From a virus (taxonomy: Duplodnaviria; Heunggongvirae; Uroviricota; Caudoviricetes): a stretch of 64,000 bases of DNA. Positions 27,293-57,372 of the stretch are shown piece after piece; position 1 is the first letter of the stretch; every line of letters begins with the position of its first letter. Under the pieces are notes generated by a model. That model was not told where the DNA came from. It saw nothing but the letters and a program-made list of their open reading frames with translations, and ran no database searches. The stretch is from IMG/VR virus record IMGVR_UViG_3300035701_000014; one strand, written 5' to 3'. The position numbers were made by a program, and so were the translations under genes.

Positions 27293-27889
27293 ATGCAAAA
27301 CATGAATAGCTACAGCCATCAGAATGAGTATTCCTTCGAGAACCATATCTTCAATGAGCTGCTCAGGAAGGAGACCAGCGAGGAGCACGCAAGGAAGATT
27401 ATCGCCAAGGTGGCACGGCATTTCAAACTTGGGAAGATTCAGGTTGTGTTCTTTGGTGAGAGCGGGGGTCTAGCCCATCTAGGATGGAATCAACGGATTC
27501 GCCTGCCACACCATTCGAACCATGAGCTGGTCGCACATGAGCTCGCCCACTTTCTTGCCTACAAGAAATACAGGAGGAAGGTCAGGCACGGAAGCAGGAA
27601 ATGGATTCGCAGCGTTGAGCGGGTCATCCGATATTGCGAGAGCAAGGGCTGGTGGGAGAATGAGCTCACTAGACTGCAGGAACAGAAGCAGCAGACCCAG
27701 CAGAAGAATGCCGAGGCAGAGAAGGTCAGGGACACCCCCACATTCAAGCTCCAGCAAATCAGGGATTCAATCAAGAGATGGGAGACCAAACAGAAGCGTG
27801 CAGCCACCGCATTGAAGAAGTTGCACAGGAGAGAAGGAATCTGGATGGGGAAGGTGGGCTCTCATGAAATCGATACTATTAAAAGATAG
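27293..27889 (+). CDS. putative HExxH zinc metallopeptidase-like protein (SprT/WLM-like)
   Basis: 198 aa; HELVAHELAHFLAY. Confidence 0.4.
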   Translation: MQNMNSYSHQNEYSFENHIFNELLRKETSEEHARKIIAKVARHFKLGKIQVVFFGESGGLAHLGWNQRIRLPHHSNHELVAHELAHFLAYKKYRRKVRHGSRKWIRSVERVIRYCESKGWWENELTRLQEQKQQTQQKNAEAEKVRDTPTFKLQQIRDSIKRWETKQKRAATALKKLHRREGIWMGKVGSHEIDTIKR

Positions 27890-28061
27890 TATGCATAAAA
27901 CAGATAACATGCCGAATCCAGATAAAGTGAAAGTCGAATTGGACAGGGATGTAGTGAATAGATTGATTAGGATGAAGCAGGTCGGAGATTCCTATTCAAC
28001 CATAATCAAGAGACTGTTGGACGATAAGGACAAAACAAAAGAGCGAGGGAAAAGGAAGTGA
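27864..28061 (+). CDS. hypothetical small protein
   Basis: ORF track 65 aa. Confidence 0.3.
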   Translation: MKSILLKDSMHKTDNMPNPDKVKVELDRDVVNRLIRMKQVGDSYSTIIKRLLDDKDKTKERGKRK

Positions 28062-28062
28062 G

Positions 28063-28440
28063 TGGAACGGGATACTTCAGCGAACCAAATTCGTTACAAA
28101 GCTCCCTCCACATATTTCTCCCTTCACGCTCTTGAAGACAGGAAAAGGTAGCAAGTGGTAAGGGATACTTCAACAACTGAACATTGCTAAAAGCTCCCTC
28201 CACATTTTCCTCCTGAAACCTTCGGAACGGAACAAGATAGTGATGGGAGAGATACTTCACTCAACATGAAACTTTGCCTTCGGGCAAATTACTCTCTCCC
28301 AATTGTTCTTCTGAAATTTCGAAGGTGATGATATATTTGCGCCATCGTTTGTAATCAGACGATGGTTTTGGACAGGAAAAGGCAGTGAGGAAAGGGTTAC
28401 TTCTGGCGAAGAATCCCCCTTTCCATTGTCCTCCTGAATT
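28063..28440 (+). ncRNA. four tandem diverged stem-loop RNA units (candidate Y-RNA-like RNAs) upstream of the Ro60-like gene
   Basis: stems GTGGAACGGGA/TCCCTCCAC (28063-28111), GTGGTAAGGGA/TCCCTCCAC (28156-28203), GGGAGAGA/TCTCTCCC (28245-28300), GGAAAGGG/CCCTTTCC (28389-28423); compensatory changes with conserved ATACTTCA and TCCTCCTGAA motifs; no credible ORF. Confidence 0.5.
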
Positions 28441-28465
28441 CCCCATGAGAATGGAGGTGTAATGT

Positions 28466-29878
28466 ATGAAATTCAATAAGAGAAATGAATCAGAAAAGAT
28501 TCCGAACTATGAAGGAGTGGATGCGTATGTCGAGACTCCAGAGCTCGAGCTCGTGTCCGTGTTGATGACATCCTTCGTGAAAGACCAGTTCTATAGGAGC
28601 GAAAGCGAGGTTCTGACCAAACTGAAGGAGCTCGTCTCAAAGGTCAAGAACAAGAAATTCATAGCTCAGGCAGCAATCTATGCAAGGACAGAATTCGGCA
28701 TGAGGTCAGTCACCCACGTGGTTGCTGGAGAGCTTGCACATGAAGTCAAGGGAGAGGCATGGATGAAGAACTTCTTCAACAAGGTAGTGCACAGACCAGA
28801 TGACATCATGGAGATTCTTACCTATTACATGCATGCATACGGCAAGCCAATTCCAAACTCAATGAAGAAAGGTCTTGCGATGTCATTCAGCAAGTTCAAT
28901 GAATACCAGCTTGCAAAATACAGGGGCGAGCAGGGAGAGCTCAAGCTGCTCGATGCAGTCAACTTGCTGCACCCAAAGCCAACAAAGGACAACAAGAAAG
29001 CATTGGAGAAACTCATGAGCGGGAAGCTGAAGGGAAAGGACACTTGGGAAGTCAAGCTCACAAAGGCAGGTCAGGAAGCGGAGACCGAAGAAGAGAAGGC
29101 AGAGTTGAAAGGCAAGGCATGGAAAGACTTGATTAAAGAGAAAAAGATTGGCTACTTCGCACTATTGAGAAACCTGAGAAACATCCTTGAGCAAGCACCA
29201 GAAGTGAAGAAAGAGGCTCTGGACTTGCTGACTGACAAGGAGCTAATCGGAAAATCCCTAGTGCTGCCGTTCAGGTTCTCAACTGCGGTAAAGCAGATTA
29301 GCGACACAGCCACAGTCAAAGCCATCAACAAGGCTGCAGACATCAGCTTGAGCAACGTGCCGAAGTTCAAGGGGAAGACGGTAATCATGCAGGACGTGTC
29401 AAGCTCAATGGAAGGAAGAACGATGGAAATCGCAGCCCTCTTCGCAGCAGTCCTGTTCAAAGCAAATGAGGCTGATGTCATCCAGTTCGAGTCTCAGGCA
29501 GAGTATAAGAAAGGCTTGAACCCAGATGATTCAGTCCTGTCACTCGCAGAGAAGCTCGAGCTGTCAACTGGTGGAACTAACCTGAATGACGCATACAGGA
29601 TACTGAACAAGCCATACGACAGGATAATCATCCTTTCAGACATGCAGAACTGGGTGGAAGGCGAGACCCCAGACGAAGAGTTCAGGGACTACAAGAAAAA
29701 GTTCAAGGCAGACCCATACATCTATTCATTCGACCTTGCAGGCTACGGGACATTGCAGTTCCCAGAGAGGAAAGTCTATGCACTCGCAGGATTCTCGGAG
29801 AAGGTCTTCGACGTAATGAGATTCCTCGAGGAAGACAAGAATGCGATGATTAACGTCATCAAGGCAGTGGAGCTCTAA
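28466..29878 (+). CDS. Ro60-like TROVE + vWA domain protein
   Basis: 470 aa; C-terminal vWA with MIDAS DVSSSM (DxSxS); about 300-aa N-terminal domain of the length expected for TROVE; architecture matches Ro60/Rsr (from memory). Confidence 0.5.
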   Translation: MKFNKRNESEKIPNYEGVDAYVETPELELVSVLMTSFVKDQFYRSESEVLTKLKELVSKVKNKKFIAQAAIYARTEFGMRSVTHVVAGELAHEVKGEAWMKNFFNKVVHRPDDIMEILTYYMHAYGKPIPNSMKKGLAMSFSKFNEYQLAKYRGEQGELKLLDAVNLLHPKPTKDNKKALEKLMSGKLKGKDTWEVKLTKAGQEAETEEEKAELKGKAWKDLIKEKKIGYFALLRNLRNILEQAPEVKKEALDLLTDKELIGKSLVLPFRFSTAVKQISDTATVKAINKAADISLSNVPKFKGKTVIMQDVSSSMEGRTMEIAALFAAVLFKANEADVIQFESQAEYKKGLNPDDSVLSLAEKLELSTGGTNLNDAYRILNKPYDRIIILSDMQNWVEGETPDEEFRDYKKKFKADPYIYSFDLAGYGTLQFPERKVYALAGFSEKVFDVMRFLEEDKNAMINVIKAVEL

Positions 29879-29905
29879 GCTCCTTTTCCTTTTCTTTTTT
29901 GTTTA
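29861..29905 (+). terminator. hairpin plus T-rich tract after the Ro60-like gene
   Basis: GGAGCTCTAAGCTCC followed by TTTTCCTTTTCTTTTTTGTTT. Confidence 0.4.
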
Positions 29906-41748: not shown

Positions 41749-43278
41749 ATGAAAAGACAGGACATGCTCTTCTGGGCGGTCTTCATAGCAATCGAACTGC
41801 TGCTCGTCGGAGTAGTCCACGCAGACACAGGAACATATACAATCGAAAAGCAGTTTACCAACCTGACAGTCCACACCAGTGGGGATGTCGACATAGCATA
41901 CTACGTCAAATTCAGGGTCGATAGCGGTAACATCCCTTGGGTCAGGATAGGGTTGCCCAATGCAGATTTCAGTATCAATAATTACGGAGGTGCAGCTTCT
42001 GCCATCCGCCCAGAGAATGATGCTGGCTGGTCGGGAGTATATATAACATTGGACAAGACCTACTACGCTGGAAACAGTTTCGACTTCTATTTCTCTGCAA
42101 CCCAACATGGCTTTATATATAAATACAACAACAACGCAACCATCGAGTTCACTCCAGTCTATTGGGACTACGCAAATACCGAGCAGCTCGCAATTACGGT
42201 GATTCTGCCTCCAACGATAAAGAATGTGACTACCTCCAGCGAGCCTACGCAATGGGGTGCAGGAAACAGCACAATATTATGGCAATGGAGTAGCCTTGGT
42301 CATGGAGAAAGGAAGACAATCGGGGTCATCATGCCTCTCGGTGCATTTAACAATACTTCGCTTCCTGATAAGCAATCGACTCATGCTGGTTATCAGTCAT
42401 CCAGCAGTCCGAACACTCCAACTACAGATTTAACTGGTCTCATTACCACGATGATTCCCGTCATGATTCTGCTTGCATTTGTCATAGTTTTATTGGGCGG
42501 TTTATCAGGAATATCCAGAGGAGGGGAGAATTATGAATCACCTTCAGTTTCGGTTGGTGGGGATAAGGAGATAACAAGACACTTGAACATGGTTTGCCCG
42601 AATGACAAAAGCCCACTGGACAAGAGGACTGTGAGTGACACGACCATCGATTATTGCGATACCTGCGGTGGATGCTGGTTTGACAAAGGGGAAATCGAGA
42701 GTCTCATCACAGATGGGATTGACGAGAAAGCCCTGAATACAAATGGCAAGGACTATTCATTCCAACAGATAAAGAAACATAAGACTGTATGCCCAAGATG
42801 CGAAGGGAAAATGCACAAGAAGTCAAGGGCAGGGGCTTCGATATTCGTCTGTGAGAACTGCGAGGGAATCTGGCTTGACAGAGGGACTTACCAGAAAATC
42901 AAGGACAAGAGAGCAGAGCAAGAAAGCCTCCAGAAAGATAAAGTCGAAAAAGCCAAACAATTAGTTTCTGGAAAGAAAACAGATGAAGACCGAGAAGTGC
43001 ATGTGCATTACTATCCTTCCTATTGGTGGTGGTTCTATCCATACATAGGGCATACTGGGACTTATTGCAAACAGGCAATCTGTGCGGACAACAAGAGCAG
43101 TGGAGGAAGTGAAAGTAGTAGCAGTTCCTATGAATCATCATCCTCAAGTTGTGCCTGCGTGAGCTGTGCCTGCGTTGCAGCATGTGCGTGTGCCTGCGCC
43201 TGCGCTGGGGGGTCGGCAGCAGGATGCAGTCCGAAGAATAAATTCAACCAGATAAGTTTGTGGGATGACAAAAAATGA
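41749..43278 (+). CDS. large secreted/membrane protein with twin zinc-ribbon modules and Ser/Cys/Ala low-complexity tail
   Basis: 509 aa; signal-like N-terminus; CPNDKSPL..CDTCGGCWFDKGE and CPRCEGK..CENCEGIWLD; tail SSSSSYESSSSSCACVSCACVAACACACACAGG. Confidence 0.45.
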   Translation: MKRQDMLFWAVFIAIELLLVGVVHADTGTYTIEKQFTNLTVHTSGDVDIAYYVKFRVDSGNIPWVRIGLPNADFSINNYGGAASAIRPENDAGWSGVYITLDKTYYAGNSFDFYFSATQHGFIYKYNNNATIEFTPVYWDYANTEQLAITVILPPTIKNVTTSSEPTQWGAGNSTILWQWSSLGHGERKTIGVIMPLGAFNNTSLPDKQSTHAGYQSSSSPNTPTTDLTGLITTMIPVMILLAFVIVLLGGLSGISRGGENYESPSVSVGGDKEITRHLNMVCPNDKSPLDKRTVSDTTIDYCDTCGGCWFDKGEIESLITDGIDEKALNTNGKDYSFQQIKKHKTVCPRCEGKMHKKSRAGASIFVCENCEGIWLDRGTYQKIKDKRAEQESLQKDKVEKAKQLVSGKKTDEDREVHVHYYPSYWWWFYPYIGHTGTYCKQAICADNKSSGGSESSSSSYESSSSSCACVSCACVAACACACACAGGSAAGCSPKNKFNQISLWDDKK

Positions 43279-46765: not shown

Positions 46766-46837
46766 AGCCGATGGAGAGACTCGAACTCCCAGCTTCGTCC
46801 TTACAGGGGACGCACTCTACCATTGAGTTACATCGGC
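46766..46837 (-). tRNA. tRNA-Thr(TGT), anticodon loop CCTGTAA with C at position 33
   Basis: manual fold: GCCGATG/CATCGGC acceptor, D ACTC-AATGGTA-GAGT, AC stem CGTCC/GGACG, T arm GGGAG-TTCGAGT-CTCTC; no encoded CCA. Confidence 0.55.
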
Positions 46838-47478
46838 AACTTGTTTAACCTTGATTTTTTATCCTCGCTTATCTTCTTCAGGTTTTCCTCCTTTGGTAAC
46901 CACCTATGATTCTCAGGTGCGAATGCGAGCTTCACCTGTTCTAGGTCTGTCAGGTCGAATGAACACAATGCTTTGATGTGGTCAACTACATACTCCCCTT
47001 CAGGTTTCTTGCCTAGGTGCTGAATAATTGCGTTATAATCAATTCCATACTCATCTACATGAAGCTTTTTTCCCTCACCATACTGTTTGAGAGCCACATT
47101 CAATCGTTTACGCAATCGGTTACAAATAACAAAACTTTCATCAGTCTTACTCTTTATAAAGCGATATGCTCTCTTCTGTGCTTTGACCTCGGGTAGTCGA
47201 CGATATTCTACTATCCATTCCTTATATTCTGGTGTCTGCTGATATATCTTTTTTCTTACCTTCACTTCAAGTCTCTGTCCATACCCCACCATATACTCTC
47301 CTTTTTGCATTTTAACTTCGGATAATTGGTCATAAGCGTTTTTCTTTGCTTTTACTTTAGGGCGTTGGCGATATTCCTTCAGATATTTTTTTCTCTTAGG
47401 TAACTGGGTATAATGTCTACTGCATACACCTTTTGCAAGAATCTCTCTTCCACATCCTTCAACTGAGCAAATTTCCAT
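46828..47478 (-). CDS. HNH homing endonuclease (paralog) inserted in the tRNA array
   Basis: 216 aa; CSVEGCGREILAKGVCSRHY; HVDHIKALCSFDLTDLEQVKLAFAPENHRWLPKEENLKK. Confidence 0.65.
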   Translation of the reverse strand: MEICSVEGCGREILAKGVCSRHYTQLPKRKKYLKEYRQRPKVKAKKNAYDQLSEVKMQKGEYMVGYGQRLEVKVRKKIYQQTPEYKEWIVEYRRLPEVKAQKRAYRFIKSKTDESFVICNRLRKRLNVALKQYGEGKKLHVDEYGIDYNAIIQHLGKKPEGEYVVDHIKALCSFDLTDLEQVKLAFAPENHRWLPKEENLKKISEDKKSRLNKLPM

Positions 47479-47491
47479 ATTCTCACTTTAA

Positions 47492-47564
47492 GGCTGAGAG
47501 TCGGGACTTGCACCCAAACCAAAGGTGTCACAGACCTCTATGCTACTATTACACCACTCCAGCC
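47492..47564 (-). tRNA. tRNA-His(GTG) with genomically encoded G-1
   Basis: AC arm GAGGT-CTGTGAC-ACCTT; G-1 opposite discriminator C; T loop TGCAAGT. Confidence 0.6.
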
Positions 47565-47567
47565 ATA

Positions 47568-47640
47568 CGCCCCGAGTCAGAATCGAACTGACAACCAACG
47601 GGTTAACAGCCCGCTACTCTATCCGTTGAGCTATCGGGGC
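47568..47640 (-). tRNA. tRNA-Asn(GTT)
   Basis: GCCCCGA/TCGGGGC acceptor; AC loop CTGTTAA; T arm GTCAG-TTCGATT-CTGAC. Confidence 0.7.
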
Positions 47641-47717
47641 ATTCTATTTTTCAAATCCTAGGATTCCGCATTTCAATTCCTAGGGCAATGTTCACTATTT
47701 AGTGAACACCACTTTCA

Positions 47718-47788
47718 TGCTCCGAGAGAGAATCGAACTCCCATGTTCGGGTCTTCAGCCCGACGTTCTCCCATTGAACTATCAGAGC
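47718..47788 (-). tRNA. tRNA-Phe(GAA)
   Basis: AC arm TCGGG-CTGAAGA-CCCGA; T arm GGGAG-TTCGATT-CTCTC. Confidence 0.7.
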
Positions 47789-47791
47789 AAA

Positions 47792-47875
47792 CGCCGAGGG
47801 CAGGATTCGAACCCACATTGCCCTCATCGGACTTCAGTTTTCAGGACTGACACCCTACCATTAGGTGACCTCGGC
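47792..47875 (-). tRNA. tRNA-Ser(TGA)-like type-II tRNA (long variable arm), loop CCTGAAA (C33)
   Basis: GCCGAGG/CCTCGGC acceptor; AC arm TCAGT-CCTGAAA-ACTGA; variable-arm hairpin GTCC-GATGA-GGGC; T loop TTCGAAT. Confidence 0.5.
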
Positions 47876-47876
47876 A

Positions 47877-47948
47877 TGCTCCCAATCGGGTTCGAACCGA
47901 TGACCTTCAGCTTATCAGACTGTTGCTCTACCACTGAGCTATGGGAGC
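47877..47948 (-). tRNA. tRNA-Ile(GAT)
   Basis: GCTCCCA/TGGGAGC acceptor; AC loop CTGATAA; T arm ATCGG-TTCGAAC-CCGAT. Confidence 0.6.
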
Positions 47949-48137
47949 TCACAAATCCTTGACCATGTTTTTCATATATCCCTTACCATGCGTATATCCC
48001 TCATCATATCCTTTCTTCCAAGCGAGTGCCTTTTCGCAAGGGCATATCTTCCCATTCCATTTCCACATGCAGCCCTCGCACTGTGCCAGAGGAAAGAAAA
48101 ATTTACCCCGATTCTCTTCTTCCATCTCAATCACCAT
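47949..48137 (-). CDS. small Cys-rich protein between tRNAs (hypothetical)
   Basis: ORF track 62 aa; CEGC...C.C. Confidence 0.3.
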   Translation of the reverse strand: MVIEMEEENRGKFFFPLAQCEGCMWKWNGKICPCEKALAWKKGYDEGYTHGKGYMKNMVKDL

Positions 48138-48142
48138 TTAAG

Positions 48143-48265
48143 TGGAGGAGAGGGGATTCGAACCCCCGAGCCACTTAGGCAACTGGTTTCTCAATCAAGT
48201 AATTTGATTGCTTTAGGCTACTTAACGTCTAAGCCAGCCACATTACCTGATTCTGTCACTCCTCC
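48143..48265 (-). tRNA. tRNA-like element, unresolved (canonical T arm + 7-bp GGAGGAG/CTCCTCC acceptor but about 120 nt; intron-containing, aberrant or pseudo)
   Basis: GGGGG-TTCGAAT-CCCCT T arm and a perfect 7-bp acceptor pair; I could not fold the D/anticodon region by hand. Confidence 0.3.
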
Positions 48266-48269
48266 ATAA

Positions 48270-48342
48270 TGGGGTCGGAGAGATTCGGACTCTCATAGCC
48301 AACTCCCAAGGCTGACCGCCTCCCAGACTAGCTCACGACCCC
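48270..48342 (-). tRNA. tRNA-Pro(TGG)
   Basis: GGGGTCG/CGACCCC acceptor; AC arm TCAGC-CTTGGGA-GTTGG (G37); T arm GAGAG-TCCGAAT-CTCTC. Confidence 0.6.
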
Positions 48343-48347
48343 ATCAA

Positions 48348-48421
48348 CGGGGACGGAGGGATTTGAACCCTCACTCGCAAGTCCGTAGCTTGCTTTCCTA
48401 TCCAGTTAGATTTACGCCCCC
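48348..48421 (-). tRNA. tRNA-Arg(ACG)
   Basis: AC arm GCAAG-CTACGGA-CTTGC; T arm GAGGG-TTCAAAT-CCCTC. Confidence 0.65.
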
Positions 48422-48591
48422 TTCACTCTTTTCTGAAAGACAATATTCCCATTATCCTCAAGCACTCCGTCATAGCCGAGGTCATCAAATGCCTTCCTTA
48501 TCTTCTCCAGCTCGGTCAAGGGAAACTCTCCCTCAAACACTGTCAGCTTCACGTTCCCCTGCATTATCTTTTTTTCTTCTTCACTTGCCAT
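48412..48591 (-). CDS. small hypothetical protein between tRNAs (track ORF 48412..48687 trimmed to the internal Met to avoid tRNA-Asp)
   Basis: MASEEEKKIMQGNVKLTVFEGEF...; overlaps the tRNA-Arg 5' end by about 10 nt. Confidence 0.25.
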   Translation of the reverse strand: MASEEEKKIMQGNVKLTVFEGEFPLTELEKIRKAFDDLGYDGVLEDNGNIVFQKRVKGA

Positions 48592-48603
48592 ATTATCCCT
48601 CAA

Positions 48604-48676
48604 CGCCTCAGCCGAGATTTGAACTCGGAACTCCAGCTTGACAAGCTGGGATGTTTGCCAATTACAACACCGAGGC
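48604..48676 (-). tRNA. tRNA-Asp(GTC)
   Basis: AC arm CCAGC-TTGTCAA-GCTGG; T arm CCGAG-TTCAAAT-CTCGG. Confidence 0.7.
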
Positions 48677-48679
48677 AAT

Positions 48680-48752
48680 TGCTCCAACAGAGACTTGCAC
48701 TCTGGTCACGAGGCTGAGAACCTCGCATCCTTGGCTACTAGACGATTGGAGC
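48680..48752 (-). tRNA. tRNA-Glu(CTC)
   Basis: GCTCCAA/TTGGAGC; D arm GTCTAGTAGCCAAGGAT; AC arm CGAGG-TTCTCAG-CCTCG; T loop TGCAAGT. Confidence 0.65.
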
Positions 48753-48784
48753 AGTTCTTTGTTAAACATGTTAAACCCGTTAAA

Positions 48785-48859
48785 TGTTCCCGACGAGATT
48801 TGAACTCGTGCCTTCAGGGTGAAAGCCTGACATCCTTAGCCGTGCTAGACGACGGGAAC
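48785..48859 (-). tRNA. tRNA-Glu(TTC)
   Basis: GTTCCCG/CGGGAAC; AC arm TCAGG-CTTTCAC-CCTGA; T arm ACGAG-TTCAAAT-CTCGT. Confidence 0.7.
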
Positions 48860-49056
48860 TTCTCTTTGATTTTCGGAGGTGGGAAGTGAAGTATATCTGC
48901 ATCTATCCGCACATGACCTCGTTCTTCCTTCAGGTCATTCCAAATGCAGAGGTGCAGATGCGGATACTTCTTCTGTATCTCCTCAATCTCTGCTATGAAT
49001 TTATCCAGTTCCGAATAATCAAATTTCTTTTCTTCCATACTATCACCTACAACCAC
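48814..49056 (-). CDS. small hypothetical protein
   Basis: ORF track 80 aa; overlaps tRNA-Glu(TTC), so doubtful. Confidence 0.2.
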   Translation of the reverse strand: MVVGDSMEEKKFDYSELDKFIAEIEEIQKKYPHLHLCIWNDLKEERGHVRIDADILHFPPPKIKEKFPSSSTAKDVRLSP

Positions 49057-49292
49057 TTCTCAATCGATTCAGGAGTCACAAGCTCCACGTCGGTTATCAG
49101 TATGCAACTGCGATTCAGCTCAGGTCGGTATCCTATCTCCTTGGTGACCATGAGCAGCTCGTCGTGTGCCTTGTTTATTTTATCCTTTAGCTCGTCACTA
49201 CAACGGACATCAGGATTCATTCTAAGCAACTCCTGCACATCCTCAGACATATCGATGTCAATAATTTTTTTCACGTTTCCCATGTTCCTCAC
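49047..49292 (-). CDS. small hypothetical protein
   Basis: ORF track 81 aa, acidic. Confidence 0.3.
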   Translation of the reverse strand: MRNMGNVKKIIDIDMSEDVQELLRMNPDVRCSDELKDKINKAHDELLMVTKEIGYRPELNRSCILITDVELVTPESIEKWL

Positions 49293-49296
49293 CTCA

Positions 49297-49370
49297 TGAG
49301 CCTGATGGGATTTTAACCCATGACCTTCTGGTTAAAAGCCAGTCGCTCTGACAAACTGAGCTACAGGCTC
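49297..49370 (-). tRNA. tRNA-Lys(TTT)
   Basis: GAGCCTG/CAGGCTC; AC loop CTTTTAA; T loop TTAAAAT. Confidence 0.65.
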
Positions 49371-49374
49371 ACCA

Positions 49375-49448
49375 CGAACCCGACGGGATTCCAACCCATG
49401 ACCTGTCGGTTAAGAGCCGACTGCTCTAGCAAACTGAGCTACGGGTTC
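49375..49448 (-). tRNA. tRNA-Lys(CTT)
   Basis: GAACCCG/CGGGTTC; AC arm GTCGG-CTCTTAA-CCGAC. Confidence 0.7.
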
Positions 49449-49451
49449 ACA

Positions 49452-49522
49452 TACGGCTAGAGGGATTTGCACCCTCGTCGAGAACTTGGAGGGCTCTCAT
49501 CCTGCTACTAGACGATAGCCGT
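49452..49522 (-). tRNA. tRNA-Gly(TCC), loop CCTCCAA (C33)
   Basis: ACGGCTA/TAGCCGT; AC arm AGAGC-CCTCCAA-GTTCT; T arm GAGGG-TGCAAAT-CCCTC. Confidence 0.55.
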
Positions 49523-49525
49523 GCA

Positions 49526-49597
49526 TGGGGGCGAGGAGATTTGAACTCCCACAAGCAGCTCTGGGGGCTGCCTTCCTGCCAGTTAGATAACGTCCCC
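49526..49597 (-). tRNA. tRNA-Trp(CCA), loop CCCCAGA (C33)
   Basis: AC arm GCAGC-CCCCAGA-GCTGC; T arm GGGAG-TTCAAAT-CTCCT; one A.C mismatch in the acceptor. Confidence 0.5.
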
Positions 49598-49598
49598 A

Positions 49599-49670
49599 TA
49601 GCCACAGCAGGAATCGAACCTGCACCGTTGCTTTGTAAGAGCAACATCCTACCGTTAGAATCATGTGGCT
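49599..49670 (-). tRNA. tRNA-Val(TAC)
   Basis: AGCCACA/TGTGGCT; AC arm TTGCT-CTTACAA-AGCAA; T arm GCAGG-TTCGATT-CCTGC. Confidence 0.7.
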
Positions 49671-49676
49671 GCAGTA

Positions 49677-49777
49677 TAGCCCTAGGAGGACTTGCACCTC
49701 CGTCTCTGGATTTCCCCAGCCAAGTTCAGAATCTGGTCTTCAAAGTCCAGCATCCTTGGCTACTAGACCATAGAGCT
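49677..49777 (-). tRNA. tRNA-Gln(TTG) with about 28-nt intron at canonical 37/38 (archaeal-type)
   Basis: AGCTCTA/TAGGGCT acceptor (one G-U); AC 5' stem CTGGA + CTTTGA, intron at about 49711-49738, then A-TCCAG; T arm GGAGG-TGCAAGT-CCTCC. Confidence 0.55.
49711..49738 (-). other. putative tRNA-Gln intron (bulge-helix-bulge-type, 37/38 position)
   Basis: AGACCAGATTCTGAACTTGGCTGGGGAA interrupts the anticodon loop; the 3' anticodon stem TCCAG follows. Confidence 0.45.
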
Positions 49778-49781
49778 ACCT

Positions 49782-49855
49782 TAGCCAGAACCAGATTTGA
49801 ACTGGTGTTCTCGGGTTATGAGCCCGATGCCCTGACCATGCTAGACCATCTGGCT
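49782..49855 (-). tRNA. tRNA-Met(CAT) (elongator or initiator undetermined)
   Basis: AGCCAGA/TCTGGCT; AC arm TCGGG-CTCATAA-CCCGA; T arm ACCAG-TTCAAAT-CTGGT. Confidence 0.65.
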
Positions 49856-49856
49856 A

Positions 49857-49927
49857 TACGGTTGCTGGGAGTCGAACCCAGCCCGCAAGCATGGCAAGCT
49901 CGCATCATACCGCTAGACTACAACCGT
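49857..49927 (-). tRNA. tRNA-Gly(GCC)
   Basis: ACGGTTG/CAACCGT; AC arm CGAGC-TTGCCAT-GCTTG; T arm CTGGG-TTCGACT-CCCAG. Confidence 0.65.
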
Positions 49928-49933
49928 ATTGCA

Positions 49934-50034
49934 TGGAGCTGCAGGGACTCGAACCCCGAGCCTCCTGCTTTTTTGGTCGTTGAGTATCTCAACAATCTGC
50001 AAAGCAGACGTTCTACCAATTGAACTACAGCCCC
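49934..50034 (-). tRNA. tRNA-Ala(TGC) with about 28-nt intron at 37/38; G3:U70 identity pair present
   Basis: GGGGCTG/CAGCTCC acceptor with G3-U70; AC TCTGC-TTTGCA-[intron about 49970-49997]-A-GCAGG; T arm CGGGG-TTCGAGT-CCCTG. Confidence 0.6.
49970..49997 (-). other. putative tRNA-Ala intron containing hairpin GTTGAG-ATA-CTCAAC
   Basis: GATTGTTGAGATACTCAACGACCAAAAA between anticodon-loop positions 37 and 38. Confidence 0.45.
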
Positions 50035-50044
50035 TTCCAATGAA

Positions 50045-50115
50045 TCTGGGCTGGAGGAGTTGAACCACCACTTACGGGTTTACAGCCCGTCGTGATACCA
50101 TTTCACCAAGCCCAG
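50045..50115 (-). tRNA. tRNA-Tyr(GTA), type I (short variable arm, archaeal/eukaryal style)
   Basis: CTGGGCT/AGCCCAG; D GTGA-AATGGTA-TCAC; AC arm ACGGG-CTGTAAA-CCCGT. Confidence 0.65.
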
Positions 50116-50399
50116 AACAAAGATGATAGCAGAAAAGAGATTTCTTAACAACCTTGTTCTTTCGACAACATGCTTGGATAATTATCTCCCGTGATAAAAC
50201 TAGCTCTCGGCTGCCACGCCTTTACTGTGACTAAATGCGGGAGTTTCATATACCTTACCTTGCTGCTTTCATTATATATAAACCTTTCGTTTCTCCGAGT
50301 CTAGAGAGCACAAGCAATCCAATCCCACGTGCACTTAGAGATTGTTTTTATATAACGGGATGTTAATCCCATTACTCTCTCCAGATTGCTTATGCTTTT

Positions 50400-50459: not shown

Positions 50460-51101
50460 ATGAAGGTCGCCTTGTATGCACGTGTCTCAACTACCGACAA
50501 GGGACAGAACCCAGAAATCCAACTGCAGCCCATGCGGGAGCGTGCAAAGAGTGAAAACTGGGAAATCTACAAGGAATATATAGACCGTGAGACAGGAACT
50601 GATTTTGAAAGAAAATATTGGGAGCAGCTCATGGAGGATGCAAAACACCATAAGTTCGATGCCGTCTATTTCTGGAGTCTCGACAGGTTCAGCAGGGTCG
50701 GAGTGTTCGAGTCAATCGAAATCCTCAACAGGATTCGCTCCTATGGAATCCGTTACATCTCCCATCAGGAATGGTTTCTCAATACAATGGGAAGCTTCGG
50801 GGATGTGCTCGTAGCTCTCTTCCTCTGGATGGCTCAGCAGGAAAGCAAGCGTCATGGGGAGAGAGTCTTGGCTGGCATGAACCCAATACTCGAAAGCCAC
50901 AAGCGTCTTGGAGTTTGGAAAACCAAATCAGGCAAACCAATTGGAAGACCGCAACTGAAACTAGATGCAGTTATCCTTGCCAAGATAAAGAAGCTCCACT
51001 TGGAAGGTGCGAGCCTGCGTGAAATCAGATACAGGCTGCTGAAAGAAGATGGAGTCAAGGTTTCTCACTCCAAGCTGGGAAAGATTTTCAAAAGCCATTA
51101 A
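50460..51101 (+). CDS. serine recombinase (resolvase/invertase family)
   Basis: 213 aa; MKVALYARVSTTDKGQNPEIQ catalytic-Ser motif; ..RFSR..; C-terminal HTH. Confidence 0.75.
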   Translation: MKVALYARVSTTDKGQNPEIQLQPMRERAKSENWEIYKEYIDRETGTDFERKYWEQLMEDAKHHKFDAVYFWSLDRFSRVGVFESIEILNRIRSYGIRYISHQEWFLNTMGSFGDVLVALFLWMAQQESKRHGERVLAGMNPILESHKRLGVWKTKSGKPIGRPQLKLDAVILAKIKKLHLEGASLREIRYRLLKEDGVKVSHSKLGKIFKSH

Positions 51102-51880: not shown

Positions 51881-52777
51881 TTATTTATTTTGCTGGGTGT
51901 TTTCCTCTTTTAGTTTCAGATATTTTCTCATTGCAACATTTCTGACTAACATCGCTGTAGGGTATCCACATCCGAACTCTGCCATGATGTCTGGTATCTT
52001 CAATCGCAGCTTACCATCCACTTCCTTGATGATATTCTTGGCTATCACTGCATCCACTAGCTGATTCACTGCAACCTGCTTGTCCTGCTGTGCTGCGTTC
52101 ATCTCCGCTATATCCGTCCTCACCTCTTCCTTCAGCCTTCTTGAGAAGCTCTTTTTTATCTGTTCATACTCCTCGCAGAACCTTGGAGGCGGTTTGGGAA
52201 TCCTGAGTTCTTTCACTTTTATATTTTGCCCCCTGTAATTCACATTCGGGAATTTGAAATAAGTCTTGCTGAACCTCGGGGAATATTCCACATTCATCGG
52301 CTTGACCACAACATACTCCTCGGAATACATTATCCTGACAGTTTCAAAGTAATGATGGAAAAGCCTGCGGGTCTGCGAGTCTATGAAGTCGAATGACGGC
52401 GTTGTGAATATCACGCAGATGTTGTAGTTCCTGAATGTCTGCAGCAGGAAGTTGATTGCCTTGTTACTCACCGTCCACCATAGCCTCGAGGGAATCCCGA
52501 CCCCCGCCTCGTCCCAGACAACGACGCTTCCCTTCGGAGGTTTTCCTGCATCTATGTCTATCATCTCGATGAAGTCTTCGGCTCTGAAGACGACTCGCTC
52601 CTTGACAGTAAAATCAGAATCAATCCTTCTGGCGAGCTCCAAGGCAGAATAAGACTTTCCAGAATTGTGCGTTATAATCCCATTCTTCAAGATAAAATTA
52701 TGGAAGTCTGGAACTATCAAATCTGCCGTTTCTTCTTCCTTTTGTGGCTCTATGCTGATAACTCTCTCGAAATGCAT
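51881..52777 (-). CDS. split-intein C-fragment (IntC, about 38 aa) fused to the C-extein of a P-loop NTPase (putative genome-packaging ATPase)
   Basis: 298 aa; N-terminal ..DLIVPDFHNFILKNGIITHN|SGKSY.. resembles DnaE-type IntC ending HN + Ser(+1); Walker B VVVWDEAG. Confidence 0.65.
   Translation of the reverse strand: MHFERVISIEPQKEEETADLIVPDFHNFILKNGIITHNSGKSYSALELARRIDSDFTVKERVVFRAEDFIEMIDIDAGKPPKGSVVVWDEAGVGIPSRLWWTVSNKAINFLLQTFRNYNICVIFTTPSFDFIDSQTRRLFHHYFETVRIMYSEEYVVVKPMNVEYSPRFSKTYFKFPNVNYRGQNIKVKELRIPKPPPRFCEEYEQIKKSFSRRLKEEVRTDIAEMNAAQQDKQVAVNQLVDAVIAKNIIKEVDGKLRLKIPDIMAEFGCGYPTAMLVRNVAMRKYLKLKEENTQQNK
52664..52777 (-). other. IntC split-intein segment
   Basis: 38 codons before the +1 Ser; block-G-like HN. 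Confidence 0.6.
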
Positions 52778-57078: not shown

Positions 57079-57372
57079 CTATACATCCTCTAAGCTTTCC
57101 TTGGACAGAAAGTTCTCGCCTTTCTTTGTTATACTATAATACACAACATTCTTTACTGCAGTTCTCTTGACAAATCCGAGTTTCTGCAAGCCCCGCATCA
57201 GTTTCCTGACATATTCCTTTCCGCCTTTGAATTGTGAGGCAGTAAGCAATTCATCGGTGTTTTTCTCCCCAGTTTTCAGGCATTCCAATACTGTTCTCCT
57301 TCTATTGGGACAGAGCTTGCCCTCCTTCATCCCTCCATCTCTCGCAAACAATGACGCACTCGACACTAACAT
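57079..57372 (-). CDS. winged-helix transcription regulator (ArsR/PadR-like)
   Basis: 97 aa; LECLKTGEKNTDELL...LQKLGFVKRTAVKNVVYYSITKKGE. Confidence 0.45.
   Translation of the reverse strand: MLVSSASLFARDGGMKEGKLCPNRRRTVLECLKTGEKNTDELLTASQFKGGKEYVRKLMRGLQKLGFVKRTAVKNVVYYSITKKGENFLSKESLEDV

What the first reader, a model, noticed from the sequence alone, without database searches (positions are those of the whole stretch)
28063..29878. Ro60-like TROVE+vWA protein preceded by four tandem covarying stem-loops (candidate Y-RNA-like RNAs)
The 400-bp gap at 28063-28440 has no plausible ORF but carries four diverged copies of an 85-90-bp unit. Each unit has a terminal stem whose two strands change in a compensatory way: GGGA/TCCC, GGGA/TCCC, GGGAGAGA/TCTCTCCC, GGAAAGGG/CCCTTTCC. 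Loop motifs ATACTTCA and TCCTCCTGAA are conserved. Directly downstream is a 470-aa protein with a C-terminal vWA MIDAS (DVSSSM) and an N-terminal domain of TROVE length, i.e. the Ro60/Rsr architecture. In bacteria and some phages, rsr is adjacent to the Y RNAs it binds. A Ro60-Y RNA module in an archaeal mobile element, and in four tandem copies, would be new.
Basis: partly seen in the sequence, partly recalled or inferred. Interest (0 to 1): 0.75.

Follow-up and report, generated by a model that had tools for sequence, protein, structure and literature searches.

The report
Ro60-like protein with four Y-RNA-like genes
A gene for a ring-shaped RNA-binding protein of the Ro60 family is preceded by four small structured RNAs that belong to a large, conserved and previously uncatalogued sub-type of the "Y RNAs" that partner Ro60 in bacteria and phages, here in what looks like an archaeal virus or plasmid.

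Summary
ORF 28466-29878 is a true Ro60/Rsr-type protein: Pfam TROVE E=3e-25, an invariant MIDAS motif, and an AlphaFold model whose top 13 PDB matches are all Ro60/Rsr. The 404-nt gap upstream holds four diverged units (52-76% identical). Each folds as outer stem S1, a conserved bulged helix (5' AGUGAG / 3' AUUUUCUCC), inner stem S2 and an apical UACUUC loop.

A covariance model built only from other loci ranks these four units as its top four hits in the 64-kb window (23-38 bits; next best 15.5). The same model finds 320 units in 154 related TROVE loci. All lie on the TROVE strand, mostly in tight arrays just upstream, and they show strong compensatory base changes. Half of the 300 units examined carry a tRNA-like module, as in bacterial YrlA. 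The window's four are the short form.

The module is a known kind of system and tandem arrays are normal for it. New here are the probable archaeal host (short tRNA introns, archaeal-type PCNA), an array with no tRNA-like unit, a variant Ro-binding motif, and an RNA family that matches nothing in Rfam 15.

The parts
27864..28061 (+). Upstream neighbour: a 65-aa ORF with weak ribbon-helix-helix / antitoxin-like similarity. Its last ~14 nt overlap the 5' flank of unit 1. It is probably co-transcribed and is not shown to be part of the module.
   Evidence: ORF; DUF7557 E=2.6e-4 and VAPB_antitox E=1e-3, both below Pfam cut-offs
28048..28127 (+). Y-RNA-like unit 1 (80 nt). 5' motif AGUGAG at 28057-28062; inner stem GUGGAACGGGA/UCCCUCCAC; apical UACUUC at 28073; 3' motif AUAUUUCUCC.
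   Evidence: R1 model 31.3 bits, E=2.2e-5; fold z=-3.8; repeat families D1-D4
28141..28214 (+). Y-RNA-like unit 2 (74 nt). Variant 5' motif AGCAAG; apical UACUUC at 28166; 3' AUUUUCCUCC. This is the weakest copy.
   Evidence: R1 22.9 bits, E=2.6e-3; fold z=-1.0; 76% identical to unit 1
28230..28312 (+). Y-RNA-like unit 3 (83 nt). 5' AGUGAU at 28239; inner stem UGGGAGAGA/UCUCUCCCA; apical UACUUC at 28253 plus an extra GC hairpin; 3' AAUUGUUCUUC.
   Evidence: R1 37.6 bits, E=6.5e-7, the best hit in the window; fold z=-4.2
28342..28369 (+). Extra hairpin (CCAUCGU / ACGAUGG) followed by UUUU, between units 3 and 4. Possibly an internal terminator or processing signal; role unknown.
   Evidence: the repeat finder I4; MFE fold. 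The terminator scan did not call it.
28375..28435 (+). Y-RNA-like unit 4 (61 nt). 5' AGUGAG at 28384; inner stem GGAAAGGG/CCCUUUCC; apical UACUUC at 28398; 3' AUUGUCCUCC. It ends 30 nt before the TROVE start codon.
   Evidence: R1 32.3 bits, E=1.3e-5; fold z=-2.5
28453..28459 (+). Shine-Dalgarno-like GGAGGUG, 6 nt before the ATG
   Evidence: read from the sequence
28466..29878 (+). Ro60/Rsr-type protein, 470 aa: TROVE HEAT-repeat ring plus a C-terminal vWA domain with MIDAS (D310-x-S312-x-S314, T371, D392)
   Evidence: Pfam TROVE E=3e-25; PHROG 850 E=8e-41; PDB phage phiLo Ro60 E=1.3e-23 over residues 13-463; AF2 pLDDT 81.9; Foldseek top 13 all Ro60/Rsr, TMq 0.56-0.76; invariant columns
29869..29900 (+). 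Terminator-like hairpin GGAGCUCUAAGCUCC overlapping the stop codon, followed by a long T-rich run
   Evidence: sequence

Best explanation
The locus is a Ro60-Y RNA module.

What is shown computationally: four small non-coding RNA genes (about 60-85 nt each) lie head-to-tail on the same strand directly upstream of a Ro60/Rsr-type gene. Each folds into a long hairpin with four parts:
- an outer stem, S1;
- a conserved bulged helix (5' N-AGUGAG, 3' AUUUUCU);
- an inner stem, S2;
- an apical loop that starts with UACUUC and holds a small CUUC/GAAG stem.

What is inferred, by analogy with Xenopus, Deinococcus, Salmonella, Mycobacterium and Thermus phage phiLo:
- The array is transcribed with, or just ahead of, the TROVE mRNA and is processed into individual RNAs.
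- The TROVE ring binds the conserved bulged helix on its outer surface.
- The bound RNA then does two things. It gates access of other RNAs to the ring's central cavity, and it tethers the ring to a partner enzyme.

How this locus differs: all four units are the short form without a tRNA-like module, resembling YrlB or Yrn2 rather than YrlA. The element also encodes a Thg1-like enzyme, RlaP, an RNA ligase and about 21 tRNAs. My proposal, which is inference, is that the RNP serves RNA quality control or repair during infection or maintenance in an archaeal host. In that host the partner nuclease would be the exosome or another 3'-5' exonuclease, not PNPase.
For: Protein is Ro60.

RNA family, tested independently of the window: a seed alignment of 18 units from other loci has 14/14 pairs with compensatory changes, and 92.8% of cells pair versus 45-51% when the partner is slid. 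RNAalifold finds the same helices plus the conserved bulged helix. Model R1, built without any window sequence, ranks the four units 1-4 over 64 kb on both strands.

Census: 161 + 159 hits in 154 TROVE loci, all on the TROVE strand and none on the other strand. On 147 distinct sequences, 17 of 19 pairs show double changes. G.U outnumbers A.C by 214 to 42.

Unbiased S1 test: 135 of 219 units close all five pairs, versus 11.7 with swapped flanks.

Reverse association: of 16 informative loci found from RNA alone, 15 have TROVE directly downstream on the same strand.

Link to YrlA: 116 of the 150 long units examined carry a T-loop motif. L003 unit 2 embeds a 55-bit tRNA-like element. The actinophage YrlA-type units share UUACUUC, 3' UUUCU and S1/S2 closure.

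Literature: Y RNAs lie next to Ro60 on the same strand, often several per locus, and are processed from one precursor (PMC4201824). Phage phiLo Ro60 binds two upstream Yrl RNAs and PNPase (PMC12135203). Regions upstream of a phage Rsr-like gene are highly transcribed (PMC12282133).

RNA-repair neighbours.
Against: - There are no expression, processing or binding data for this element.
- No Rfam family matches.
- The published bacterial Rsr-binding motif GNCGAAN0-1G is not present in the four units (AGUGAG, AGCAAG, AGUGAU, AGUGAG).
- None of the four has the tRNA-like module that Chen et al. report for at least one Y RNA per species.
- Unit 2 is weak (22.9 bits, z = -1.0).
- No promoter or defined ends were found. 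Unit 4 runs almost into the ribosome-binding site, so some units may act only within the mRNA leader.
- Alignments A4 and A5 are model-fitted and lean towards the structure.
- The archaeal partner enzyme is pure inference.
Confidence: 0.85

Rival explanations
1. The units are cis-acting leader elements of the TROVE mRNA, for example Ro60 binding its own 5' UTR to autoregulate translation or stability, rather than stable free-standing small RNAs.
For: Unit 4 ends 30 nt before the start codon with no terminator in between. In many relatives the last unit abuts the CDS. The 3' motif CCUCC is complementary to the GGAGG ribosome-binding site 17 nt downstream.
Against: In some relatives the units also sit downstream of TROVE (L001, L071, L074, L081), and one orphan exists (L210). 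Half of the units examined carry tRNA-like modules typical of trans-acting YrlA. In M. smegmatis and D. radiodurans, Y RNAs upstream of rsr are processed from a precursor into stable RNAs (PMC4201824). The two roles are not mutually exclusive.
Confidence: 0.1
2. The four units are decaying remnants of once tRNA-like YrlA genes. They would be duplicated and eroding sequence with no present function.
For: None of the four has a T or D arm. Unit 2 has a variant 5' motif and low scores. Units 1, 2 and 4 share the same S1 5' strand GGAAAAGG, which suggests recent duplication.
Against: At 52-76% identity the inner stems have changed on both strands while keeping pairing, and the unpaired motifs (AGUGA, UACUUC, UUNUC) are kept. 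That pattern indicates selection on structure. Short units make up half of the 300 examined, and 53 of 131 loci have no unit with a T-loop motif.
Confidence: 0.04
3. The repeats act at the DNA level (iterons or regulator binding sites) or are plain transcription terminators or attenuators.
For: They are direct repeats in an intergenic region next to a small putative DNA-binding protein gene. Both strands fold well.
Against: All 320 hits lie on one strand relative to TROVE. Pairing is kept through compensatory changes and G.U wobbles, which would be A.C on the other strand. No U-tract follows any unit, and no + strand terminator is called inside the array.
Confidence: 0.01

Closest known systems
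Bacterial/phage YrlA-YrlB Y RNAs with Rsr (Salmonella, M. smegmatis, mycobacteriophages; Chen et al. 2014, PMC4201824)
   Same: The RNAs are encoded next to a Ro60 orthologue on the same strand, often several per locus from one precursor. The 5' and 3' ends pair into a long stem that holds a conserved protein-binding motif on the 5' strand. Relatives of the window's RNAs carry the T/D-arm tRNA-like module. Short 'long hairpin, small loop' forms (YrlB, Yrn2) also exist. The actinophage YrlA-type units read here share the apical UUACUUC and the 3' UUUCU.
   Different: The 5' motif here is N-AGUGAG (with variants AGCGA, AGUAA, AGCAA, GGYRA) rather than GNCGAAN0-1G. None of the window's four units has a tRNA-like module. 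The R1 model does not score the actinophage units, so this is a distinct sub-type. The host is probably archaeal, where PNPase, the known partner, is generally absent (my background knowledge).
Thermus phage phiLo Ro60 with Yrl1/Yrl2 (PDB 9KOP, 9L5Y; PMC12135203)
   Same: It is the closest solved protein by sequence (E=1.3e-23, residues 13-463) and by fold. Two Y-like RNAs lie directly upstream of the phage gene and bind the protein in vitro.
   Different: The proteins are only 22-23% identical. The phiLo RNAs were picked by a CGAA motif. The host is bacterial, and a ternary complex with host PNPase was shown.
Metazoan Ro60 / Y RNA (Xenopus 1YVP, human)
   Same: The predicted fold superposes full-length (TMq 0.74-0.76). 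The RNA is a 5'/3' stem with a conserved bulged helix.
   Different: The proteins are 17% identical. Rfam Y_RNA does not match. Metazoan Y RNA genes are dispersed Pol III genes.
TROVE genes noted in archaeal elements: halovirus HGTV-1 gp129, Asgard 'Nidhogg' viruses, Borgs
   Same: A TROVE+vWA protein in an archaeal virus or extrachromosomal element, next to RNA-repair-type genes and tRNAs. HGTV-1 has TROVE-HNH-nucleotidyltransferase. Borgs have TROVE in their core set (PMC11208441).
   Different: The passages I retrieved from those papers (term searches for Ro60, Y RNA and TROVE) identify no Y RNA. Here the RNAs are identified, and HGTV-1 shows one weak unit (18.6 bits, E=0.016) with the same layout in the gap upstream of gp129.

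Membership tests
Ro60 / Rsr protein family | TROVE (HEAT-repeat ring) domain | tested here: met
   Pfam PF05731 E=3e-25, 89.8 bits against a cut-off of 23; PHROG 850 'RNA-binding protein' E=8e-41
Ro60 / Rsr protein family | C-terminal vWA domain with MIDAS (DxSxS...T...D) | tested here: met
   D310, S312, S314, T371 and D392 are invariant in 38 homologues. The Pfam VWA_2 and vWA_Ro60 hits fall below their cut-offs. The fold is confirmed.
Ro60 / Rsr protein family | Full-length fold like solved Ro60 structures | tested here: met
   AF2 pLDDT 81.9, pTM 0.75. The Foldseek top 13 are all Ro60/Rsr (9KOP, 9L5Y, 1YVP, 2I91, 9NEP, 2NVO), E 1e-11 to 1e-16, TMq 0.56-0.76. The next hits are vWA-only at TM about 0.24.
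Ro60 / Rsr protein family | Binds Y RNA and misfolded RNA | not testable with these tools
   Needs EMSA or RIP
Bacterial/phage Y RNA (Yrl type) | Encoded within a few kb of the Ro60 orthologue on the same strand | tested here: met
   The units lie 30-418 nt upstream on the + strand. Across the family, 320 of 320 hits are on the TROVE strand. The reverse test gives 15 of 16.
Bacterial/phage Y RNA (Yrl type) | 5' and 3' ends pair into a long stem that contains a conserved bulged or internal-loop helix | tested here: met
   S1, the conserved helix and S2 are all supported by covariation. The window units fit the model end to end.
Bacterial/phage Y RNA (Yrl type) | GNCGAAN0-1G motif near the 5' end (PMC4201824) | tested here: not met
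   The window units have AGUGAG, AGCAAG, AGUGAU and AGUGAG. The family census gives AGUGA 158, AGCGA 52, AGUAA 24, AGCAA 16 and GGYRA 30 out of 300. The motif sits in the same position with a similar purine-rich content, so it is a variant and not the published motif.
YrlA subfamily | tRNA-like module (T-arm, acceptor-like stem, D-arm) in the apical region | tested here: not met
   There is no T-loop motif in 28048-28435 and no tRNA hit there. The feature is met in relatives: 116 of 150 long units, and L003 3699-3764 scores 55 bits against the tRNA model.
YrlB / Yrn2-like short Y RNAs | Long hairpin with a small loop and no tRNA-like domain, encoded beside a Ro60 gene | tested here: met
   Folds of units 1-4. 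No sequence homology to Salmonella YrlB could be tested, because its sequence is not held.
Bacterial/phage Y RNA (Yrl type) | Stable accumulation that depends on Ro60, and co-purification with it | not testable with these tools
   Needs RNA-seq, Northern blots or RIP
Metazoan Y_RNA (Rfam RF00019) and every other Rfam 15 family | Match to the covariance model | tested here: not met
   No relevant hit even at E<=10 over 27850-28550. For L001-L003, only tRNA-type hits appear at E<=0.1.
Intrinsic terminator / attenuator | GC-rich hairpin directly followed by a U-tract | tested here: not met
   No + strand terminator-like site inside 28048-28435. The 3' flanks are CACGCU, GAAACC, GAAAUU and GAAUUC.

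The most novel reading that the evidence does not exclude
This is the first identified Ro60-Y RNA ribonucleoprotein system of an archaeal virus or extrachromosomal element. It would use only short Y RNAs without a tRNA-like module, and a variant Ro-binding helix (AGUGAG / AUUUUCUCC). Together with the element's own Thg1-like enzyme, RlaP, RNA ligase and tRNA set, it would form an RNA quality-control or repair kit that couples to an archaeal nuclease such as the exosome instead of PNPase. The same RNA family has at least 320 members in phages, Verrucomicrobiota and Bacteroidota. It would define a second major Y RNA class that is absent from Rfam, and it explains some 'tRNA' annotations next to Ro-like genes in crAss-like phages.
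Probability: 0.35. Interest if true: 0.65.

Novelty: new variant of a known kind. Interest (0 to 1): 0.48.

Why it matters
Ro60-Y RNA particles are a conserved RNA-surveillance machine, and in humans they are a major autoantigen. In prokaryotes they have been studied in only a few bacteria and one phage.

This locus and the family defined around it provide four things:
1. A covariation-backed consensus for the part of the RNA that most likely docks on the ring. The consensus is shared by short and tRNA-like forms across hundreds of phage and bacterial loci.
2. A probable archaeal example, which raises the question of which nuclease replaces PNPase as the partner.
3. A cultured test system, halovirus HGTV-1, which shows the same layout upstream of its TROVE gene.
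4. An annotation fix, because some tRNA calls next to Ro-like genes are probably Y RNA modules.

The finding does not overturn anything. It extends a known system.

Tried and rejected
- **Rfam at gathering and at E<=10**. Nothing relevant. The weak MIR408, PyrD-leader and snoRNA hits are noise.
- **Tandem Repeats Finder**. No array, because the copies are too diverged.
- **IMG/VR scan with the single protein**. Nothing. The alignment-based scan worked.
- **Thermodynamic strand choice**. Both strands fold about equally well, so this is not usable.
- **First heuristic unit finder**. It mis-closed many long units, so only the clean short ones were used as seeds.
- **RNA-only regex scan of IMG/VR**. 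74 of 92 matches had no TROVE. My estimate is about 50 or more chance matches for that loose pattern, assuming a collection size of roughly 1e11 bases. The model confirmed units in only 20 of the 89 loci scored.
- **ARAGORN intron mode on relatives**. It gives mostly long false 'introns' that join tRNA-like halves of neighbouring Y units. It is therefore not evidence for archaeal hosts there.
- **Bulge-helix-bulge motif for the window's two tRNA introns**. It could not be shown cleanly by MFE folding.
- **Second assembly of the element** (L164). It is identical, so it gives no population-level covariation.
- **Cluster look-up for taxonomy**. No organism names were returned.
- **Supplementary tables of Chen et al. 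and the 2020 Annual Review**. Neither is held. I therefore could not check whether any long units of this family are among their 355 YrlAs.
- **Minus-strand ORFs over the array**. No family hits, so they were rejected as genes.
Full report
**1. The observation**

The + strand between the stop of a 65-aa ORF (28061) and the ATG at 28466 has no ORF of 40 aa or more. Two minus-strand ORFs cross the gap but match no protein family.

The repeat finder recovers four copies of two motif families in this gap. Tandem Repeats Finder sees nothing because the copies are too diverged. Pairwise identity is 52-76%.

Each copy folds into a long hairpin. The whole spacer folds far better than shuffles (z = -5.5). 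The opposite strand does almost as well (z = -5.1), so thermodynamics alone neither proves function nor picks the strand.

They form the inner stem of each unit. 'ATACTTCA' is a real conserved apical motif. 'TCCTCCTGAA' is not a loop: it is the 3' strand of a conserved helix plus the outer stem.

**2. The protein**

ORF 28466-29878 (470 aa) is a Ro60/Rsr-family protein:
- Pfam TROVE at E = 3e-25 and PHROG 850 at E = 8e-41.
- Full-length alignment to the Ro60 of Thermus phage phiLo (PDB 9KOP/9L5Y, E = 1.3e-23).
- The MIDAS residues D310, S312, S314, T371 and D392 are invariant in 38 homologues.
- An AlphaFold2 model (pLDDT 81.9, pTM 0.75) has as its 13 best PDB matches only Ro60/Rsr structures from phage, frog, human and Deinococcus (TMq 0.56-0.76). 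The next matches are isolated vWA domains at TM about 0.24.

More than 4000 homologues exist in the protein database, and the nearest are 55-62% identical.

**3. The RNA family**

Three neighbourhoods of close homologues all have a 300-470-nt gap upstream of TROVE. Each gap holds three or four units of the same design. One of those units encloses a 55-bit tRNA-like element.

I fetched 160 more loci: 80 from IMG/VR and 80 from GTDB genomes. I aligned 18 clean short units, none from the window.

On that alignment, 14 of 14 pairs of the two variable stems show compensatory changes. 92.8% of cells pair, versus 45-51% when the partner is slid by 1-3 columns, and 0 of 500 shuffles reach this. RNAalifold independently returns the same stems. 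It adds a nearly invariant helix between them: A-U, G-C, a U/U mismatch, G.U and A-U, with a bulged N on the 5' side and three unpaired bases on the 3' side.

My seed picker had required closure of the outer stem. I therefore re-tested that stem by anchoring only on unpaired motifs. 135 of 219 units close all five pairs with their own flank, versus a mean of 11.7 (maximum 21) with flanks swapped between units.

**4. Independent test on the window**

The covariance model R1 contains no window sequence. Run with filters off over all 64 kb and both strands, its four best hits are the four units:
- 28230-28312: 37.6 bits
- 28375-28435: 32.3 bits
- 28048-28127: 31.3 bits
- 28141-28214: 22.9 bits

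E-values run from 6.5e-7 to 2.6e-3. The fifth hit scores 15.5 bits (E = 0.18).

**5. Census and association**

R1 finds 161 units in 74 viral loci and 159 units in 80 genome loci. All 320 are on the TROVE strand and nearly all lie within 800 nt upstream. A few lie just downstream.

Arrays hold 1-6 units with a median gap of 13 nt. On 147 distinct sequences, 17 of 19 pairs have double changes, and the middle helix shows A-U to G-C swaps. G.U pairs outnumber A.C by 214 to 42, as expected for an RNA read from this strand. These two alignments are model-fitted and lean towards the structure.

Among the 300 best-scoring units, half are short (under 100 nt) and lack a T-loop motif. The other half are 100-170 nt, and 116 of those 150 have a T-loop motif, often followed by a D-arm.

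For the reverse test I scanned IMG/VR with an RNA-only pattern. Most matches were chance, as I estimated from the pattern's information content. R1 confirmed units in 20 loci. Of these, 15 have TROVE directly downstream on the same strand (28-58% identical to the window protein), four are truncated and one is an orphan.

**6. Relation to known Y RNAs**

Chen et al. (PMC4201824) describe the following:
- YrlA RNAs lie next to Ro60 on the same strand in 254 bacteria and 22 phages.
- They carry a 5' GNCGAAN0-1G motif and a tRNA-like module.
- Several Y RNAs per locus can be processed from one precursor.
- Short 'long hairpin' Y RNAs (YrlB, Yrn2) also exist.

The family found here has the same layout and, in its long members, the same tRNA-like module. 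Its 5' motif differs: AGUGA 53%, AGCGA 17%, AGUAA 8%, AGCAA 5%.

R1 does not score the units of Streptomyces phage GiJojo. By eye those units share UUACUUC, 3' UUUCU and closure by S1 and S2, with GAUGCG as the 5' motif. I read this as two sub-types of one superfamily.

R1 also finds units in other distant loci:
- A 634-kb uncultured phage, at 34.9 bits.
- A crAss-like phage, where two units enclose the annotated tRNA-Tyr and tRNA-Lys.
- Caulobacter phage CcrColossus, weakly.
- The haloarchaeal virus HGTV-1, weakly (18.6 bits, E = 0.016), in the 133-nt gap upstream of gp129, where the same parts can be read by eye.

No Rfam 15 family matches any of this.

**7. What kind of genome this is**

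Evidence pointing to an archaeal host:
- The window has 19-21 tRNA genes. Two of them carry inserts of about 26-28 nt directly 3' of the anticodon. That is far too short for a bacterial group I intron and is typical of protein-spliced archaeal or eukaryal introns. I could not show a clean bulge-helix-bulge motif.
- A 306-aa protein aligns over its length to archaeal PCNAs (best E = 7.5e-14).
- One protein has two TFIIB-type zinc ribbons.

Most relatives of the TROVE gene sit in bacterial or phage contexts. I therefore rate an archaeal virus or extrachromosomal element as likely (about 0.75), not proven.

The element also carries these genes:
- a Thg1-like enzyme (PDB 4KGK at E = 5e-45)
- RlaP (E = 9e-51)
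- an RNA ligase
- two ParB-like genes
- a resolvase
- an SPFH protein and a radical SAM/SPASM protein

TROVE genes have been noted in HGTV-1, Asgard viruses, Borgs and jumbo phages, where they are linked to RNA repair. The passages I retrieved from those papers identify no Y RNA for any archaeal element.

**8. Mechanism**

- Shown: a Ro60-fold protein, and four adjacent same-strand RNAs of a covarying, TROVE-linked family whose relatives include YrlA-like tRNA mimics.
- Inferred from the studied systems: co-transcription and processing; binding of the conserved helix to the ring's outer face; and the RNA acting as gate and tether.
- Speculative: in an archaeal host the tethered enzyme would be the exosome or another exonuclease, and the RNP would work with the element's repair enzymes and tRNAs against host RNA-targeting defences.
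- Expression precedent: phage CKA15 has three highly transcribed regions upstream of its Rsr-like gene (PMC12282133).
- Binding precedent: phiLo Ro60 binds its two upstream RNAs (PMC12135203).

**9. Verdict**

The claim that four tandem copies would be new is wrong, because arrays are the norm. What is new is modest but real:
- a probable archaeal setting;
- an array made only of short units;
- a variant binding motif;
- a large, well-supported RNA family with no Rfam match.

I file it as a new variant of a known kind, interest 0.48.

Noticed in passing
window 46766-50116 (- strand): An array of 19-21 tRNA genes. Two of them (49934-50034, Cys GCA; 49677-49777, Gln UUG) have inserts of about 26-28 nt right after the anticodon. 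This is consistent with archaeal-type spliced introns. The Gln gene is called by Rfam only.
   Followed up: partly
window 3380-4081, 10478-11485, 15640-16518 (+): RNA/tRNA-repair genes on the same element: a Thg1-like 3'-5' polymerase, an RlaP nucleotidyltransferase and an RNA ligase. RlaP also sits directly upstream of the Y-RNA array in relative L002, and a nucleotidyltransferase follows TROVE-HNH in HGTV-1.
   Followed up: partly
L167 (phage csAssE-Sib OR575929.1) 1489-1910: The annotated tRNA-Tyr (1660-1732) and tRNA-Lys (1805-1878) upstream of the 'Ro sixty-related protein' lie inside R1-type Y-RNA units (28-34 bits). They are probably tRNA-like modules of Y RNAs, or tRNAs embedded in a Ro-binding stem, rather than ordinary tRNA genes.
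   Followed up: partly
L166 (Halovirus HGTV-1 NC_021328.1) 1842-1935: One weak R1 hit (18.6 bits, E=0.016) lies in the 133-nt gap directly upstream of TROVE gp129. The parts readable by eye are S1 CGGU/ACCG, 5' GCGAG, S2 GGAGUCGG/CCGACUUCC, AUACUUCAAUAUUGAA and 3' AAUUUC. This is a cultured archaeal virus in which the idea can be tested.
   Followed up: partly
window 57232-57274 (+): The fifth-best R1 hit (15.5 bits, E=0.18) is a mini-hairpin carrying both halves of the conserved helix (GGCAGUAAGC ... GUGUUUUUCUCCCC) around a 9-nt loop. It lies in a region whose genes are on the other strand. It is probably chance, but it resembles a minimal binding site.
   Followed up: no
window 28342-28369 (+): A 7-bp hairpin followed by UUUU sits between units 3 and 4 and is not part of the repeat unit. 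It may split the array into two transcripts or mark a processing site.
   Followed up: no
L210 4721-4814 (-): A single strong unit (49.6 bits) with 4.7 kb of downstream sequence and no TROVE gene detectable by tblastn. It was the only orphan among the 16 informative loci.
   Followed up: partly
L003 3673-3807, compared with L012/L015/L043 long units: There are two styles of tRNA-like insert. In L003 the element is in normal tRNA order (Rfam tRNA 55 bits, model positions 4-67). In many others the T-arm comes before the D-arm, the permuted order described for YrlA.
   Followed up: no
L004, L013, L092, L106, L139 and others (Y-RNA arrays): ARAGORN in intron mode reports tRNAs with mostly long (about 100-2500 nt) 'introns', many of them inside the arrays. 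It is probably joining halves of neighbouring tRNA-like units. This is a likely source of false tRNA calls near Ro-like genes.
   Followed up: partly
window 1-64000: The coding strand shows a strong purine skew (GC skew about +0.2, AT skew about +0.2) that flips sign near 46-48 kb, where gene orientation also flips. This suggests a replication origin or terminus, or two divergent transcription modules. An archaeal-type PCNA (7264-8184), a protein with two TFIIB-type Zn-ribbons (41749-43278), an intein fragment fused to a Zot-like ATPase (51881-52777) and a serine resolvase (50460-51101) are also present.
   Followed up: partly
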